From Ferruginibacter sp. (GTDB lineage Bacteria > Bacteroidota > Bacteroidia > Chitinophagales > Chitinophagaceae): 64,000 bases of DNA. Location: contig NZ_JAQBNR010000046.1 of NCBI RefSeq assembly GCF_028288465.1, positions 93,219-157,218 on the forward strand. The letters run 5' to 3'. The stretch's first letter is position 1; each line of letters starts with the position of its first letter. A program made the translations under genes and the position numbers. A model generated the notes under the pieces. That model saw only the letters and a list, made by a program, of their open reading frames with translations. It did not search any database and was not told the DNA's origin. Positions 38,042-47,256 of this stretch are shown here, one piece after another.

Positions 38042-38106
38042 TAAAAATAGAAATAAAAAAAACGGTACAACTATATTTATGCTGCTGATTTCTATACTTT
38101 TTTAAC
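38042..38106 (-). promoter_or_regulatory. Regulon promoter 1 (creatininase operon): -7-like TATTTTTA plus GTTAAAAAAGTA box
   Basis: TACTTTTTTAAC at 38095-38106 on the + strand, 53 bp from TAAAAATA at 38042-38049, the same spacing as the other three copies. Confidence 0.6.
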
Positions 38107-38113
38107 GAGGGTA

Positions 38114-40219
38114 TTATTGCGCCACCGCGTAAATTTTTATACCAGCTAAATCAACGTTCACAACGGTGCGCCCTTTGCCAGTTGCACGAATGCCTGCGAC
38201 TCTTTTTGCTTCACCCAATTCCGGGCTCATTAAAGACAATTGCGAAAAACGAATGCTGCTGTTGATTTCATAAGACAGTTCATTGTCTGTGATCAGTGAA
38301 TCAATGTCTTTGATCAATGGCACATCTGAAAGGTCCTTCACTTCATCCGGCACTGGCAGCAGGCCTCCGTTCATAAAATGAATGGCCGCTTTGCCGTTGT
38401 AAAACCTGATTCTTGCAGCCCAACGTTGATCGCCTTTCAGCTGCCTGATAACAGGTTTAAATTTGCCTGCTTCAATTAATTTTTGCAATGGTGCCGATGC
38501 CACCGCAGAGCCAATGATATATAAATTTTTATATTTTGCTTTTAATAAAACTACCGACAGCGGCGTTGCACGGGCAAAGCCTTTTTCGTTGTGCGTACCA
38601 AATGGCAGGGCAACCCAGGCAATACCACCTTTGGAAAGATAGGATTGAATGGCTGTAAATTGTTTGTCTGATACGCAGGCAACGCCATCCATTATCAAGG
38701 GTGTATTTTCTTTGCTCAATGCAGCGGCGTCTGCCAGTTCGGCCGTACGTAAAAAACGATAGCCTACATTGTGTTTCACCAGTTGAGCACTCCATGCTTT
38801 CGATCTGTCCCAGTGTTCATGACCAGCTTCATCCCGCCAACCGTTTTCCCGGCAATAACTATTGTTCACCAACCGTACTTCCACCAGGTCTTTGCCATCG
38901 CGGTAATTTAAATCGCTGTATTGTTTTTCCCAGTTGTTTGATTTGCTGATGGCTTCTTCGGCCTCCAGTGAATGCGCAGGATCCTCTTCCAGCCTGCTGT
39001 TTAGCGTACTGCTCCAGTTGCCTACGCCCCAGAATCTTGCTAAGGCCCAGCCAAAATAAGCGCCCTTTTCAAAGATGGCATAGCTCAATGCCATGGCCGG
39101 TGCGTTGTTTCTTTTTTGGGCAATGTCTTTCTGGTGCAAGGCTTCCGCATCCATTTCTATCCAGTCTGCATTTTTGATATTGGTGCCCACATTTTCCAGC
39201 ATAAACAAATCCAGGTAGGGCGCCATTTTTTCAAGGTCAAGTGCCACAGCATTCAATACAATCGGCCCGGTGTTGGAACAGCAGGTCATCAGGGGTTTAT
39301 CGCCCAACACGCCCTTGATCATCTTTACATGGTCATACACAGCATCGGCTTTCATACGCAGCCAATCGCGGTACGCAGGGTTATCATAATTGCCCCACTC
39401 CAGCATGCCTTTTGTTGTATCACCAAAAAAGTTTTTATCAGAAAAATCCGGAATGTCATGACCATATTCCTTTTTAAACCGATCCCTGCAATAGTTACAA
39501 CCACAGGTAGTATTGCCCGGGTAACTGCACATATCATCTACTTCCACACCATCAAAAGGTACTTCCTTCATCAGCCGCTGGAGGTATTTTTTATGCATGT
39601 CCAAAAAGTTGGGATTGTTATGGCAGAAGGCTTCAAACTGGTATTGTTTGGCATAACCACGACTGCCATCCCTTAAATCCACTTCACACAAATCATTGTA
39701 GAAATATCCTTCATACTGCGCATATTTCCTGGCAATGGGATCAGGAAAAAGCAATACTGCGTGCCGCTCAAACTTATGTACATAACGGAAGTCGGCCTCA
39801 TTTCTTGGCCTGGTAATATCGTTGCAGCTATAGTGATCCATAAAGCGCACACCGTTCTTGTGCAGCTCTTCACACACGTTGGCATAATAACCATGCAGCT
39901 GGCTGAAATAATTGGCAAAATCAAAACGGTTGTGAAAACCAAAATTGATAGCGGTATCAATACCGGCTTTTGCAAAACCCTCAGCCCGTCTTTTTATTTT
40001 ATCCACCACTTGTTTTTGCGGCCATTGAATGTCTTCAAGAGTGCACCACCAACTGGCACTACGGTTGGGAATAAAGGCTGTTGCGGTGTTGTTTGATAGC
40101 TGCCTGCCAAAGGAAGCCAGCTGGCCGGCATACGTGGGTAAACTATGCAGGAGGCTAAAGCCTGCGCCTGTTACAGCTGCCGTTTGTATAAATTTTCTGC
40201 GATTGGTTTTTCCGCTCAT
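38114..40219 (-). CDS. Tat-exported uncharacterised glycoside-hydrolase-like protein, paralogue 1
   Basis: Tat NRRKFIQ; FCHNNPNF, DGVEVDDM, CGCNYC; C-terminal GATase-like trimerisation domain (PLIMDGVACVSD..YLSKGG). Confidence 0.75.
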   Translation of the reverse strand: MSGKTNRRKFIQTAAVTGAGFSLLHSLPTYAGQLASFGRQLSNNTATAFIPNRSASWWCTLEDIQWPQKQVVDKIKRRAEGFAKAGIDTAINFGFHNRFDFANYFSQLHGYYANVCEELHKNGVRFMDHYSCNDITRPRNEADFRYVHKFERHAVLLFPDPIARKYAQYEGYFYNDLCEVDLRDGSRGYAKQYQFEAFCHNNPNFLDMHKKYLQRLMKEVPFDGVEVDDMCSYPGNTTCGCNYCRDRFKKEYGHDIPDFSDKNFFGDTTKGMLEWGNYDNPAYRDWLRMKADAVYDHVKMIKGVLGDKPLMTCCSNTGPIVLNAVALDLEKMAPYLDLFMLENVGTNIKNADWIEMDAEALHQKDIAQKRNNAPAMALSYAIFEKGAYFGWALARFWGVGNWSSTLNSRLEEDPAHSLEAEEAISKSNNWEKQYSDLNYRDGKDLVEVRLVNNSYCRENGWRDEAGHEHWDRSKAWSAQLVKHNVGYRFLRTAELADAAALSKENTPLIMDGVACVSDKQFTAIQSYLSKGGIAWVALPFGTHNEKGFARATPLSVVLLKAKYKNLYIIGSAVASAPLQKLIEAGKFKPVIRQLKGDQRWAARIRFYNGKAAIHFMNGGLLPVPDEVKDLSDVPLIKDIDSLITDNELSYEINSSIRFSQLSLMSPELGEAKRVAGIRATGKGRTVVNVDLAGIKIYAVAQ

Positions 40220-40247
40220 CTCAACAGGTTTTGGTAAAGTGCTGATT

Positions 40248-45055: not shown

Positions 45056-47164
45056 TTATTGCACCACCGCATACACTTTCACCCCATCCAAATTAATCCG
45101 CGAGGTCGTAAGGCCATTGCTTTTTCCTACAATTGAAACAGGTCGTTGTACGCCATTCAATTCAGGGCTCATCACCGATAAGCCGCTTAAAGAAAATGCT
45201 GCAGTATTAATTTCATATTCCTGTTCATTGTCTTTAATCGCAGAATCCAGGCCGACCAAAATCGGGATATCAGAAAGATCTTTTAATGTTGGATGCGGTA
45301 TCGCCGTAAGGGCTGCATTCATACAATGCAAAACAAGTTTGCCATTGTACATGCGCATTCTTACCGCCCATCTTTTATCGCTCTTAATTTGCTTAATAAC
45401 AGGTTTAAATTTTCCTGTCGCGATTAGATGTTGCAAAGGTGTTGATGTAACAGCAGACGAAATCATCACCAGGTTTTTATACCGGTGCTTCTTCAATTCC
45501 TCTGATAACGCAACCGGTCTTGCAAACCCTTTTTCATCATGCGTACCAAAAGGCAACGCTAACCAGGCAATGCCGCCGTTTAAGAGATACGTTTTGATGG
45601 CAGCAAATTGTTTGTCAGAAACACAAGCCACGGTATCTAAAATCAGCGGAGTTTTTTCTTTGCTTAATGCATCGGCATTTTCCAATGCTGCTGAACGAAC
45701 AAACCCATAGCCTACATTATTTTTTACCAACTGCTCACTCCAGGCCGCCACACTATCCCAATGCTCATGACCATCCTTGTTGCGCCAGCCATTTACTTTG
45801 CAATCACGACTGTACACCAGTCTTACTTCTGCAAAATCTTTTCCAATATTATAATCGAGATCGCTGAATTGTTTTTCCCAATGATTGGTTTTGCCGATCA
45901 CAGCCTCCTGCTCCATCGCATCCGGCGGATCTTCCGGCAGTCTTGCATTGAGCGTACTGCACCAGTTGGACACACCCCAGAAACGACTGAGCGCCCAGCC
46001 AAAATAAGCACCCGTTTCATAGATGGTATAACTCAATGCCATAGCCGGACGATTGTCTTTTTCAGCCGCTATATCTTTCTGTAACAAAGCCTCTGCATCC
46101 ATCTTTATCCAGTCAACATTCTGCACATTAGTGCCTACATTTTCCAGCACAAAAAAATCAAGCTGTGGCGCTAATTTTTCCAGGTCAAGTGATAAGGCAT
46201 TCAGTACCAACGGACCGGTATTAGAACAACAGGTCATCAATGATTTTTCGCCCATCGTCGTCTTAATCATTTTCAAATGATCCGTAATTGCATCCACTTT
46301 CATGCGCAACCAATCCCTGAAAACCGGGTTGGCATAATTACCCCATTCCAATGTTTCTTTTGTGGTGTCGCCCCAAAAATCTTTTTCGCCAAAGGACGGA
46401 ATCTCGTGACCGTATTCCTTCCTGAACCGCTCCCGGCACCAGGTACAGCCGCACACCGTTGGACCTGCATAGTTGCACATATCATCTACCATGATGCCGT
46501 CCAGTGGTACTTCCTTTAATAATCGCTGTAAATATTTTTGGTGCATGTCCAGGTAGTTGGGGTTGCTATGGCAAAAAGTATTTAACTGGTATTGTGGTGC
46601 ATAACCAAGGCTTCCATCTCTTAAATCAACCTGGCAAACATCGTTGAACAAGTGGCCTTCGTATCGTGCGTATTTTGCAGCTATTACATCATGGTACAGC
46701 AACACATGATGCCGCTGAAAAGTGTTCATCTTTCTTAACTCTGCTTCATCTTTTGGCCTGGAGATATGATTGCAGGAATAGTGCTCCATGAAATGAATGC
46801 CCTGCTGGTGCAGGGCTTCACACACATCTGCGTAGTAGCCATGCAGCTGGCCAAAATAATCCGCAAAATCAAAACGGATATGAAAGCCAAAATTCACGGC
46901 CGTATCAATATTCGCTTTGGCAAAACCTTCGGCCCGCCGCTTTATTTTATCGCTGATTTGTTTTTGCGGCCACTGCAGGTCTTCGATAGACGTCCACCAG
47001 CTTGCTACGCGGTTGGGAATAAAAGTGGTTGCAGGACAGTTGTTGAGGTTCGTTGTGTGACGATCATTTGCATACAAAAACGAAAAATTGTTTGCAGCTG
47101 CAACGCCTGCCCCTGACATAACTGCCAGCTGGATAAACTTCCTTCGGTTGCAGGGGTACCTCAT
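45056..47164 (-). CDS. Tat-exported uncharacterised glycoside-hydrolase-like protein, paralogue 3
   Basis: Tat NRRKFIQ; FCHSNPNY, DGIMVDDM, CGCTWC; collinear with paralogues 1 and 2. Confidence 0.75.
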   Translation of the reverse strand: MRYPCNRRKFIQLAVMSGAGVAAANNFSFLYANDRHTTNLNNCPATTFIPNRVASWWTSIEDLQWPQKQISDKIKRRAEGFAKANIDTAVNFGFHIRFDFADYFGQLHGYYADVCEALHQQGIHFMEHYSCNHISRPKDEAELRKMNTFQRHHVLLYHDVIAAKYARYEGHLFNDVCQVDLRDGSLGYAPQYQLNTFCHSNPNYLDMHQKYLQRLLKEVPLDGIMVDDMCNYAGPTVCGCTWCRERFRKEYGHEIPSFGEKDFWGDTTKETLEWGNYANPVFRDWLRMKVDAITDHLKMIKTTMGEKSLMTCCSNTGPLVLNALSLDLEKLAPQLDFFVLENVGTNVQNVDWIKMDAEALLQKDIAAEKDNRPAMALSYTIYETGAYFGWALSRFWGVSNWCSTLNARLPEDPPDAMEQEAVIGKTNHWEKQFSDLDYNIGKDFAEVRLVYSRDCKVNGWRNKDGHEHWDSVAAWSEQLVKNNVGYGFVRSAALENADALSKEKTPLILDTVACVSDKQFAAIKTYLLNGGIAWLALPFGTHDEKGFARPVALSEELKKHRYKNLVMISSAVTSTPLQHLIATGKFKPVIKQIKSDKRWAVRMRMYNGKLVLHCMNAALTAIPHPTLKDLSDIPILVGLDSAIKDNEQEYEINTAAFSLSGLSVMSPELNGVQRPVSIVGKSNGLTTSRINLDGVKVYAVVQ

Positions 47165-47191
47165 GTTTCGTTGGTTGTAAGATTAGATACT

Positions 47192-47256
47192 CAAATCTAC
47201 TCGTTTCATACAATCGCATATTCCTATAATCAACTTAAAGACTGTACTTTTTTAAC
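47192..47256 (-). promoter_or_regulatory. Regulon promoter 4: -7 TAGATTTG plus GTTAAAAAAGTA box
   Basis: CAAATCTA at 47192-47199, TCCTATAATC at 47222, TACTTTTTTAAC at 47245-47256. Confidence 0.8.

What the first reader, a model, noticed from the sequence alone, without database searches (positions are those of the whole stretch)
38042..47256. Four copies of one activator-box/promoter module with exact 53-bp spacing
TACTTTTTTAAC occurs at 38095, 40301, 44084 and 47245. Exactly 53 bp from each lies a -7 element on the minus strand: TAGATTTG at 40248, 44031 and 47192, and TATTTTTA at 38042. A second conserved block, TTCC(T/A)(A/T)TAATC-N3-TTAAA, lies between them in three copies, and no clear -33 TTTG is visible, as expected for activator-dependent promoters. 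A related TATAACCGGCTTAA sits in the creatininase leader (37996-38009). This ties the hydrolase paralogues and the catabolic operon into one regulon. The AraC gene at 29502 is the likely reader (inference).
Basis: partly seen in the sequence, partly recalled or inferred. Interest (0 to 1): 0.65.

Follow-up and report, generated by a model that had tools for sequence, protein, structure and literature searches.

The report
AraC operator-promoter cassette of a glycan regulon
Four promoters in this window (seven in the genome) carry the same invariant box at a fixed distance from the core promoter, and comparison with hundreds of genomes shows the box travels with one AraC-type regulator gene, so it is very probably that regulator's docking site: an ordinary kind of switch, but one that ties an uncharacterised hydrolase family and sugar-breakdown operon into one regulon.

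Summary
GTTAAAAAAGTA (minus strand) occurs at the four stated places. Each copy lies 45 nt upstream of a Bacteroidota -7 element, TAnnTTT(G/A).

The whole genome has seven such cassettes. The other three are on contig C11, in front of a SusC/SusD pair, a GH20 gene and a Tat-exported GFO/DUF1080 pair. The conserved block spans about 41 bp: an invariant distal half and a looser proximal half that reaches the -33 region.

Comparative evidence links the box to the cupin-AraC gene at 29502-30383:
- Of 55 loci found through AraC orthologues (52% identity or more), 46 carry the cassette within 10 kb, often directly beside the AraC gene. None of 25 loci with more distant homologues do.
- Among 401 genomes of the order, exactly five have the orthologue and all five have the cassette (Fisher p = 3e-9).
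- Of 77 exact boxes, 70 keep the same spacing.

The best reading is an AraC/XylS-type class-II-like activator site, comparable to araI1-I2, that controls a polysaccharide-utilisation regulon.

The "related" element in the creatininase leader is not conserved. The missing -33 element is not diagnostic in this genome.

This is a new member of a known kind, of moderate interest.

The parts
38067..38107 (-). Operator A. Invariant box GTTAAAAAAGTA at 38095-38106, plus a proximal half of the creatininase-operon subclass. It begins 7 nt after the stop codon of the 701-aa hydrolase gene.
   Evidence: The sequence is 100% identical over about 85 nt in F. paludis and MAG L006. The logo gives the 41-bp span.
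38042..38049 (-). -7 element TATTTTTA of promoter A. The leader to the ATG at 37928 is about 105 nt.
   Evidence: Fixed offset of 57.
40273..40313 (-). Operator B. Box at 40301-40312; proximal half TTTTAAAGCGATTAATGGAAAA.
40248..40255 (-). -7 element TAGATTTG of promoter B, 29 nt before the ATG at 40219.
44056..44096 (-). Operator C. Box at 44084-44095; proximal half TTTTAAACCGATTATAGGAAAA.
44031..44038 (-). -7 element TAGATTTG of promoter C.
47217..47257 (-). Operator D. Box at 47245-47256; proximal half CTTTAAGTTGATTATAGGAATA.
47192..47199 (-). -7 element TAGATTTG of promoter D.
29502..30383 (+). Cupin-AraC regulator gene (293 aa), the proposed reader of the box. It is the only member of this subfamily in the genome.
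   Evidence: Pfam HTH_18 82.4 bits and AraC_binding 23.6 bits. Co-occurrence and adjacency with the box. The next paralogue is 35% identical.
38114..40219 (-). Regulated gene: Tat-signal 701-aa protein (paralogue 1). GH42/GH35/GH164-like fold with no family assignment.
41902..44004 (-). Regulated gene: 700-aa paralogue 2.
45056..47164 (-). Regulated gene: 702-aa paralogue 3.
30895..37928 (-). Regulated operon: creatininase-family amidohydrolase, RidA, 3HCDH-type dehydrogenase, MR/MLE enolase-superfamily enzyme, EamA transporter, DHDPS-family enzyme, SDR, FAH-family hydrolase.
   Evidence: Pfam and NCBIfam. This operon is the gene set most often linked to the AraC orthologue, in about 29 of 55 loci.

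Best explanation
Each of the four modules is a promoter-operator cassette. It has three parts:
- A conserved operator of about 41 bp. The distal half, (T)GTTAAAAAAGTAYACA, is invariant. The proximal half, TT-A-N3-GATTAT-N-G-A, is looser.
- 17 unconserved bases.
- The Bacteroidota -7 element TAnnTTT(G/A).

The operator is most likely bound by a dimer of the cupin-AraC regulator encoded at 29502-30383. The invariant distal half would be the high-affinity anchor, near -69 to -53 if transcription starts about 6 nt after the -7 element. The weaker proximal half would reach the -33 region. When a sugar-derived effector is present, the regulator would recruit RNA polymerase, as AraC does at araI1-I2.

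The regulon has seven promoters in this genome:
- three paralogues of a Tat-exported GH42/GH35-like protein;
- the creatininase-to-FAH catabolic operon;
- on contig C11, a SusC/SusD pair;
- on contig C11, a GH20 gene;
- on contig C11, a periplasmic GFO/3-keto-disaccharide-hydrolase pair.

What is shown: the motif, its rigid spacing, its conservation, and its co-occurrence with and adjacency to the AraC orthologue. What is inferred: binding, activation rather than repression, the transcription start, the dimer/half-site model and the effector.
For: Motif and spacing
- The motif and its spacing are in the sequence.
- There are seven cassettes in the genome, all in front of genes of one functional theme.
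- The cassette is kept in front of orthologous genes in genomes down to about 60% protein identity. The reversed-pattern control gives 0 hits.
- A logo from 70 non-redundant sites shows information only at positions 0-40 and at the -7 element. Position 65 was not part of the search pattern, yet it is G or A in 70 of 70 sites.
- 70 of 77 exact boxes keep the offset.

Link to the AraC gene
- In the reciprocal search from the AraC protein, 46 of 55 orthologue loci carry the cassette, against 0 of 25 non-orthologue loci (p = 1e-13). The box is often just 3' of the AraC stop codon or 36-300 nt upstream and divergent.
- In 401 genomes of the order, the five with the orthologue are the five with true cassettes (p = 3e-9).
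- Two genomes that have the hydrolase homologue but no AraC orthologue lack the box.
- The protein has a cupin/AraC_binding domain plus an HTH_18 domain.
- There is a single copy of this subfamily in the genome.
Against: - There is no experimental evidence of any kind.
- The two operator halves are not a clear direct repeat. The best offset is 21 bp, but its score is about zero, so the dimer/half-site model rests on analogy.
- Nine of 55 orthologue loci show no cassette within the DNA fetched. Some of these contigs are short, and only one mismatch or fewer was allowed.
- There is no box upstream of the AraC gene itself in this genome.
- The absence of a -33 element is not diagnostic here.
Confidence: 0.82

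Rival explanations
1. The shared sequence is only a remnant of gene duplication. The three hydrolase paralogues were copied together with their upstream DNA, and the similarity has no function.
For: The three paralogues are 64-70% identical and lie in tandem. Their upstream regions align best with one another.
Against: The same box, at the same spacing, stands in front of non-homologous genes: the creatininase operon, SusC, GH20 and GFO. Conservation is confined to 41 + 8 bases, with randomised DNA between and around them. The box is invariant across genera in which the proteins have diverged to 55-65% identity.
Confidence: 0.02
2. The box is a real regulatory site but is read by a different protein, either another transcription factor or the AraC-type response regulator at 9481-10275. 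The cupin-AraC gene is merely a co-inherited neighbour.
For: No binding data exist. In this genome the AraC gene is 7.7 kb or more from the nearest box, and there is no box in its own upstream region. A second AraC-type DNA-binding protein is encoded in the window.
Against: Across 55 loci, the cupin-AraC orthologue is the only regulator seen to travel with the box in the loci examined. It is often immediately adjacent, even on contigs of 2-5 kb that hold little else. Presence and absence match in 401 genomes. The gene sets around the box differ between genomes while the AraC gene stays.
Confidence: 0.07
3. The AraC protein binds the box but acts mainly as a repressor or as a dual regulator, for example by looping between cassettes, rather than as a simple activator.
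For: E. coli AraC itself represses by looping in the absence of arabinose (established knowledge, from memory). Several cassettes lie within a few kb of each other, and in other genomes they occur as divergent pairs 130-280 bp apart.
Against: The operator lies wholly upstream of the -7 element and does not cover it or the presumed start. It keeps a rigid helical register with the -7 element in 70 of 77 cases. That is what contact with RNA polymerase would require, and a roadblock would not.
Confidence: 0.08
4. The A-tract box is a protein-independent UP-element-like or DNA-bending promoter feature and not a transcription-factor site.
For: The box contains an A6 tract about 60 nt upstream of the start, which is where UP elements and bends act.
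Against: The invariant G1, G10 and T11-A12, and the conserved YACA and GATTAT blocks, are not explained by bending. The box is limited to 1-7 promoters per genome, and only in genomes with the AraC orthologue.
Confidence: 0.02

Closest known systems
AraC at the araBAD promoter (araI1-araI2), Escherichia coli
   Same: The regulator has an N-terminal cupin sugar-binding/dimerisation domain and a C-terminal double-HTH domain. The operator is bipartite, about 40 bp, lies directly upstream of the core promoter and reaches its upstream element. It has a strong distal half and a weaker proximal half. The estimated positions, about -69 to -29, resemble I1-I2 as I recall them; this comparison is from memory and was not tested.
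   Different: The core promoter is of the Bacteroidota type (a -7 TAnnTTTG element and no -10/-35). The two halves are not a recognisable direct repeat. No distal O2-like site was sought or shown. The regulator is only about 20-30% identical to AraC and falls far below NCBIfam's AraC cut-off (61 bits against 208).
RhaR (BT3768), AraC-family rhamnose regulator of Bacteroides thetaiotaomicron
   Same: It is a stand-alone (non-HTCS) AraC-family regulator of a sugar catabolic regulon in Bacteroidota. Its regulon was reconstructed by the same kind of comparative genomics (PMC3878776, PMC3870299, PMC2707267).
   Different: It belongs to a different orthologous group and has a different motif. It controls monosaccharide catabolism only. 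Here the regulon also includes a SusC/SusD pair and several glycosidase-type genes.
HTCS regulators of Bacteroides PULs (AraC-type DNA-binding domain)
   Same: The DNA-binding domain is of the AraC type, the sites lie upstream of PUL operons, and the predicted sites are bipartite with about 21 bp between half-site centres (PMC3878776).
   Different: The regulator here is a soluble cupin-AraC protein of 293 aa, with no periplasmic sensor, kinase or receiver domains. Its operator halves differ from each other.
AraC-type 'stress regulon' promoter cassettes noted elsewhere in this scan (e.g. e1-2879669, e1-4625572)
   Same: The architecture is the same: an AraC-type bipartite site at a rigid distance from a -7 element, repeated in front of several operons next to the regulator gene.
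   Different: The regulator subfamily, motif sequence and gene content differ (stress and envelope genes there, glycan catabolism here). I did not test those notes.

Membership tests
AraC/XylS family transcription regulator (the protein at 29502-30383) | C-terminal DNA-binding domain of about 100 aa with two helix-turn-helix motifs | tested here: met
   Pfam HTH_18 82.4 bits (cut-off 33.6) and HTH_AraC 41.9 bits (cut-off 26.6), residues 204-283.
AraC/XylS family transcription regulator (the protein at 29502-30383) | N-terminal cupin-type ligand-binding/dimerisation domain (AraC subgroup) | tested here: met
   AraC_binding PF02311 scores 23.6 bits against a cut-off of 21.1, which is marginal. 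Cupin_2 is below its cut-off. The N-terminal domain is 50-68% conserved among the box-linked orthologues.
AraC/XylS-type class II activator site | Two adjacent half-sites of about 17-20 bp (usually direct repeats about 21 bp apart) occupied by a dimer | tested here: inconclusive
   The conserved span is 41 bp with two blocks. Self-comparison gives the best offset at 21 bp, but with a score near zero.
AraC/XylS-type class II activator site | The proximal half abuts or overlaps the upstream core-promoter element, at a fixed phase with the start site | tested here: inconclusive
   The operator ends 17 nt before the -7 element in 70 of 77 boxes.
AraC/XylS-type class II activator site | The regulator binds the site and activates in response to an effector | not testable with these tools
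   Only co-occurrence and adjacency statistics are available.
Bacteroidota primary-sigma promoter | -7 element TAnnTTTG | tested here: met
   TAGATTTG is present in three copies. The fourth copy has TATTTTTA, which lacks the final G. In 70 sites the last position is G in 37 and A in 33, and never C or T.
Bacteroidota primary-sigma promoter | -33 element TTTG/TTG about 19 nt upstream of the -7 element | tested here: not met
   TTG is absent at the expected offsets in the regulon sites. It is also not enriched in 406 generic TAnnTTTG upstream regions of this genome, so its absence carries little information.
Polysaccharide utilisation locus (PUL) | An adjacent SusC-like TonB-dependent transporter and SusD-like lipoprotein, co-regulated with glycan-degrading enzymes | tested here: met
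   On contig C11, a TBDR (Plug plus barrel) and a SusD-like protein (373.9 bits) lie behind a box, with GH20 behind the next box. The same linkage is seen in four other genomes. Co-regulation is inferred from the shared cassette.

The most novel reading that the evidence does not exclude
One narrow AraC subfamily, with an essentially invariant operator and a rigid promoter geometry, has been reused to wire different gene sets across genera named as Chitinophagaceae, Pedobacter and Dyadobacter. These sets include a SusC/SusD-GH97 locus in some genomes, and the hydrolase/creatininase/GH20 regulon here. In this genome it marks an undescribed pathway for an amino-sugar-containing glycan, one that starts with a new clan GH-A-like glycosidase family. 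Its nearest solved folds are the GH35 exo-beta-D-glucosaminidases, at about 11% identity.
Probability: 0.4. Interest if true: 0.55.

Novelty: new member of a known kind. Interest (0 to 1): 0.4.

Why it matters
- It gives a precise, testable regulatory code (41-bp operator, 17-nt spacer, -7 element) and a named candidate regulator for a glycan-utilisation regulon in soil and freshwater Chitinophagaceae. Almost no PUL regulators have been characterised in that group; a 2020 paper (PMC7641319) notes that mechanisms were then known only for a few gut Bacteroides PULs.
- The regulon membership links a protein family that has no Pfam, NCBIfam or PDB sequence match to a SusC/SusD pair, a GH20 gene and a sugar-acid-type catabolic operon. 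This narrows the search for its substrate.
- A cultured type strain, Ferruginibacter paludis CECT 8366, carries near-identical cassettes.
- The cassette could also serve as an inducible promoter part for these bacteria.

Tried and rejected
- Sigma-70-type promoter and terminator scan of 30300-48000: 45 promoter-like sites against 42.6 expected, so it is uninformative, as expected for Bacteroidota.
- Sixty GTDB relatives, including 36 of the same genus, have no homologue of the 700-aa protein. Phylogenetic footprinting therefore had to use more distant genomes found by pattern search.
- Search for an internal direct or inverted repeat in the operator: there is none. Offset 21 is best, but its score is about zero.
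- The -33 argument: a control on 406 generic promoter-like regions shows no -33 signal in this genome either.
- The 'related' element at 37996-38009 is not conserved in the two closest relatives, so I rejected it as part of the system.
- The other 14 exact copies of the 12-mer in the genome mostly lie inside ORFs, and none is upstream of a gene with the -7 element at the fixed offset. I treated them as chance.
- Literature: there is no relevant paper with the box sequence, and none linking TAnnTTTG with an AraC site of this kind.
- Rfam: there are no hits in the window.
No transcription-start or induction evidence could be obtained.

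
Full report
**Observation**

The 12-mer TACTTTTTTAAC occurs on the + strand at 38095, 40301, 44084 and 47245, and nowhere else in the window even with one mismatch. Read on the minus strand, which is the coding strand of all downstream genes, each copy is GTTAAAAAAGTA. Exactly 45 nt later comes TAGATTTG (three copies) or TATTTTTA (the copy before the creatininase gene). The three copies in front of the ~700-aa paralogues also share TTTAA-N3-GATTA(A/T)(T/A)GGAA.

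On its own the 12-mer count is only mildly unusual: with one mismatch allowed, 0.99 copies are expected and 1 of 100 shuffles reaches four. The composite is what makes it significant.

**Genome-wide picture**

The window is C61:93219-157218 of a 6.88-Mb, 41% G+C draft genome. The genome has 21 exact copies of the box.
- Fourteen mostly lie inside ORFs; none is upstream of a gene with the -7 element at the fixed offset.
- Seven are intergenic and aimed at a gene. All seven have TAnnTTT at offset 57 from the first G.

Four of the seven are the window copies. The other three are on the 28.6-kb contig C11, in front of:
- a 3-keto-disaccharide-hydrolase (DUF1080) gene plus a Tat-signal GFO/IDH/MocA oxidoreductase;
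- a SusC-like/SusD-like pair;
- a GH20 gene, followed by an unassigned 358-aa gene.

In Ferruginibacter paludis CECT 8366 the proteins are 90-99% identical and syntenic. There, all seven cassettes and the AraC gene lie within 75 kb of one contig. C11 is therefore probably a neighbour of the window in the real chromosome.

**Genes behind the boxes in the window**

- The three paralogues (701, 700 and 702 aa; 64-70% identical) have a twin-arginine signal. They have no Pfam, NCBIfam or PDB sequence match.
- The operon 37928 to 30895 encodes, in order: a creatininase-family amidohydrolase, RidA, a 3-hydroxyacyl-CoA-dehydrogenase-type enzyme, an MR/MLE enolase-superfamily enzyme, an EamA transporter, a DHDPS-family enzyme, an SDR and a FAH-family hydrolase.
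- The AraC gene at 29502-30383 encodes a cupin/AraC_binding domain plus an HTH_18 domain.

**Conservation**

The 700-aa family is absent from 60 GTDB relatives, but it is found in scattered Chitinophagaceae, Sphingobacteriales and other Bacteroidota.

In five genomes whose proteins are 60-99% identical, the composite pattern GTTAAAAAAGTA-N45-TAnnTTT occurs 3-7 times. The reversed control gives zero. The hits lie in front of orthologues of the same gene sets: the hydrolase, the creatininase operon, SusC/SusD, GH20, GFO and the 358-aa gene.

A logo from 70 non-redundant sites has information only in two places:
- Positions 0-40: T GTTAAAAAAGTA YACA .. TT . A ... GATTAT . G . A ... TT.
- The -7 element. 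Its last base was not part of the search pattern, yet it is G in 37 sites, A in 33, and never C or T.

The 17 bases between the two blocks carry no information. Of 77 distinct exact boxes in these loci, 70 have the -7 element at the same offset, and no other offset has more than three. Duplication remnants cannot explain this, because the cassette precedes unrelated genes and the surrounding DNA is randomised.

**Who reads it**

Three independent comparisons point to the cupin-AraC protein.

1. Genomes with and without the orthologue. Among seven genomes with a hydrolase homologue, the five with an AraC orthologue (66-99% identity) have the cassettes. The two whose best AraC homologue is only 39-42% identical have none, not even in front of the hydrolase gene.

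2. Search starting from the AraC protein. This returned 80 loci.
   - 46 of the 55 with 52% identity or more carry a cassette within 10 kb.
   - None of the 25 with 42% or less do (Fisher p = 1e-13).
   - In many loci the box is directly beside the AraC gene. It lies either just after the AraC stop codon, in front of the next gene, or 36-300 nt upstream in divergent orientation. This holds even on contigs of 2-5 kb.
   - The taxa include Puia, Flavitalea, Niabella, Flavihumibacter, Terrimonas, Ginsengibacter, Chitinophaga, Pedobacter and Dyadobacter.

3. Even sample of 401 genomes of the order.
   - Exactly five have the orthologue (E of 1e-90 or lower). All five have the pattern, on the same contig as the AraC gene.
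   - Five of the other 396 have single hits without the extended consensus. That equals the reversed-control rate of 10 hits in 401 genomes (Fisher p = 3e-9).

The genome has only one member of this AraC subfamily; the next paralogue is 35% identical. Both domains are conserved among box-linked orthologues (N-terminal 49-85%, DNA-binding 59-94%), with a clear gap to other homologues.

The gene set most often next to the orthologue is the creatininase-to-FAH operon, in about 29 of 55 loci. In another group of genomes the arrangement is AraC-box-SusC/SusD with other enzymes, such as GH97 or an SDR plus an MR/MLE enzyme. The same operator therefore serves partly different regulons.

**Mechanism (inferred)**

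I assume that transcription starts about 6 nt after the -7 element. On that assumption the operator spans roughly -69 to -29. The invariant half lies near -69 to -53, and the weaker half reaches the place where a -33 element would sit. This is the layout of a class-II-like AraC/XylS activator site, and it resembles araI1-I2 (from memory).

The rigid 17-nt spacer fits a requirement for direct contact with RNA polymerase. A 41-bp span fits two DNA-binding domains, which implies a dimer. However, the two halves are not a recognisable repeat: the best offset is 21 bp with a score of about zero. That part of the model therefore rests on analogy. The effector is unknown.

**What does not hold**

- The 'related' TATAACCGGCTTAA in the creatininase leader lies in a stretch that differs in F. 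paludis and MAG L006, while the preceding 100 nt are almost identical. I regard it as chance.
- The absence of a -33 TTTG is real but not diagnostic. A control of 406 generic TAnnTTTG upstream regions in this genome shows no -33 enrichment.
- There is no box upstream of the AraC gene here, so autoregulation through this site is not indicated in this genome.

**Limits**

No binding, expression or transcription-start data exist. I found no relevant paper containing the box sequence and none describing this regulator. The literature places stand-alone AraC regulators among known PUL regulator types, with few characterised (PMC7641319). Bipartite sites with 21-bp spacing have been reported for AraC-type HTCS domains in Bacteroides (PMC3878776).

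**Side result**

An AlphaFold2 model of the 700-aa protein (pLDDT 82.9, pTM 0.85) matches three-domain clan GH-A enzymes at about 11% identity: GH35 exo-beta-D-glucosaminidases (8oug, 6jow), GH42 beta-galactosidases and the GH164 beta-mannosidase. Taken together with the GH20 gene, the creatininase-type amidohydrolase and RidA, this suggests an amino-sugar-containing glycan as substrate. That is speculation.

**Verdict**

The feature is a new member of a known kind: an AraC-type operator-promoter cassette that defines a PUL-like regulon. It is well defined and directly testable, but not surprising in principle.

Noticed in passing
window 38114-40219, 41902-44004, 45056-47164: The three Tat-signal ~700-aa paralogues have no Pfam, NCBIfam or PDB sequence hit. 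Their AlphaFold2 model (pLDDT 83) matches GH35 exo-beta-D-glucosaminidases, GH42 beta-galactosidases and the GH164 beta-mannosidase at about 11% identity. They are probably an unassigned clan GH-A-like glycosidase family.
   Followed up: partly
genome contig C11:16622-28287 (locus L134): This is a second part of the regulon, outside the window. Boxes lie at C11:16622, 19075 and 24522, in front of DUF1080 + Tat-GFO, SusC/SusD, and GH20 + an unassigned 358-aa gene. In F. paludis this locus lies about 50 kb from the main locus on the same contig.
   Followed up: yes
window ~40319-40430: A dispersed repeat of about 80 nt (core CATCGTTGTGTCACTCACTTTTACTTTTTCAGC) sits 6 nt upstream of box B. It occurs at least 25 times across the genome at 72-94% identity. 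There is no Rfam match, and its function is unknown.
   Followed up: partly
window 40313-41901 and 44096-45055: Compared with F. paludis, this genome has extra DNA between the paralogues. The first stretch is about 1.1 kb with small ORFs. The second is about 0.95 kb and holds a 187-aa ORF with no Pfam hit. In F. paludis the corresponding gaps are about 485 and 16 nt.
   Followed up: no
L065-L074, L085 and similar loci (other genomes): In a second group of genomes the AraC orthologue (64-70% identity) is followed directly by the same box and a different SusC/SusD locus, for example with GH97, or with an SDR plus an MR/MLE enzyme. The same operator is therefore reused for other gene sets.
   Followed up: partly
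window 911-10275: This is a separate PUL. It has SusD, SusC and a split hybrid two-component system: a sensor kinase with Reg_prop/Y_Y_Y domains at 6311-9481 and a receiver-AraC response regulator at 9481-10275. It lies near a GH92 gene. No box is present.
   Followed up: no
whole genome: In 406 upstream regions that carry TAnnTTTG, no -33 TTG/TTTG enrichment is seen at any offset. The -33 element may be weak in this lineage, or the simple sampling may be too noisy to show it.
   Followed up: partly
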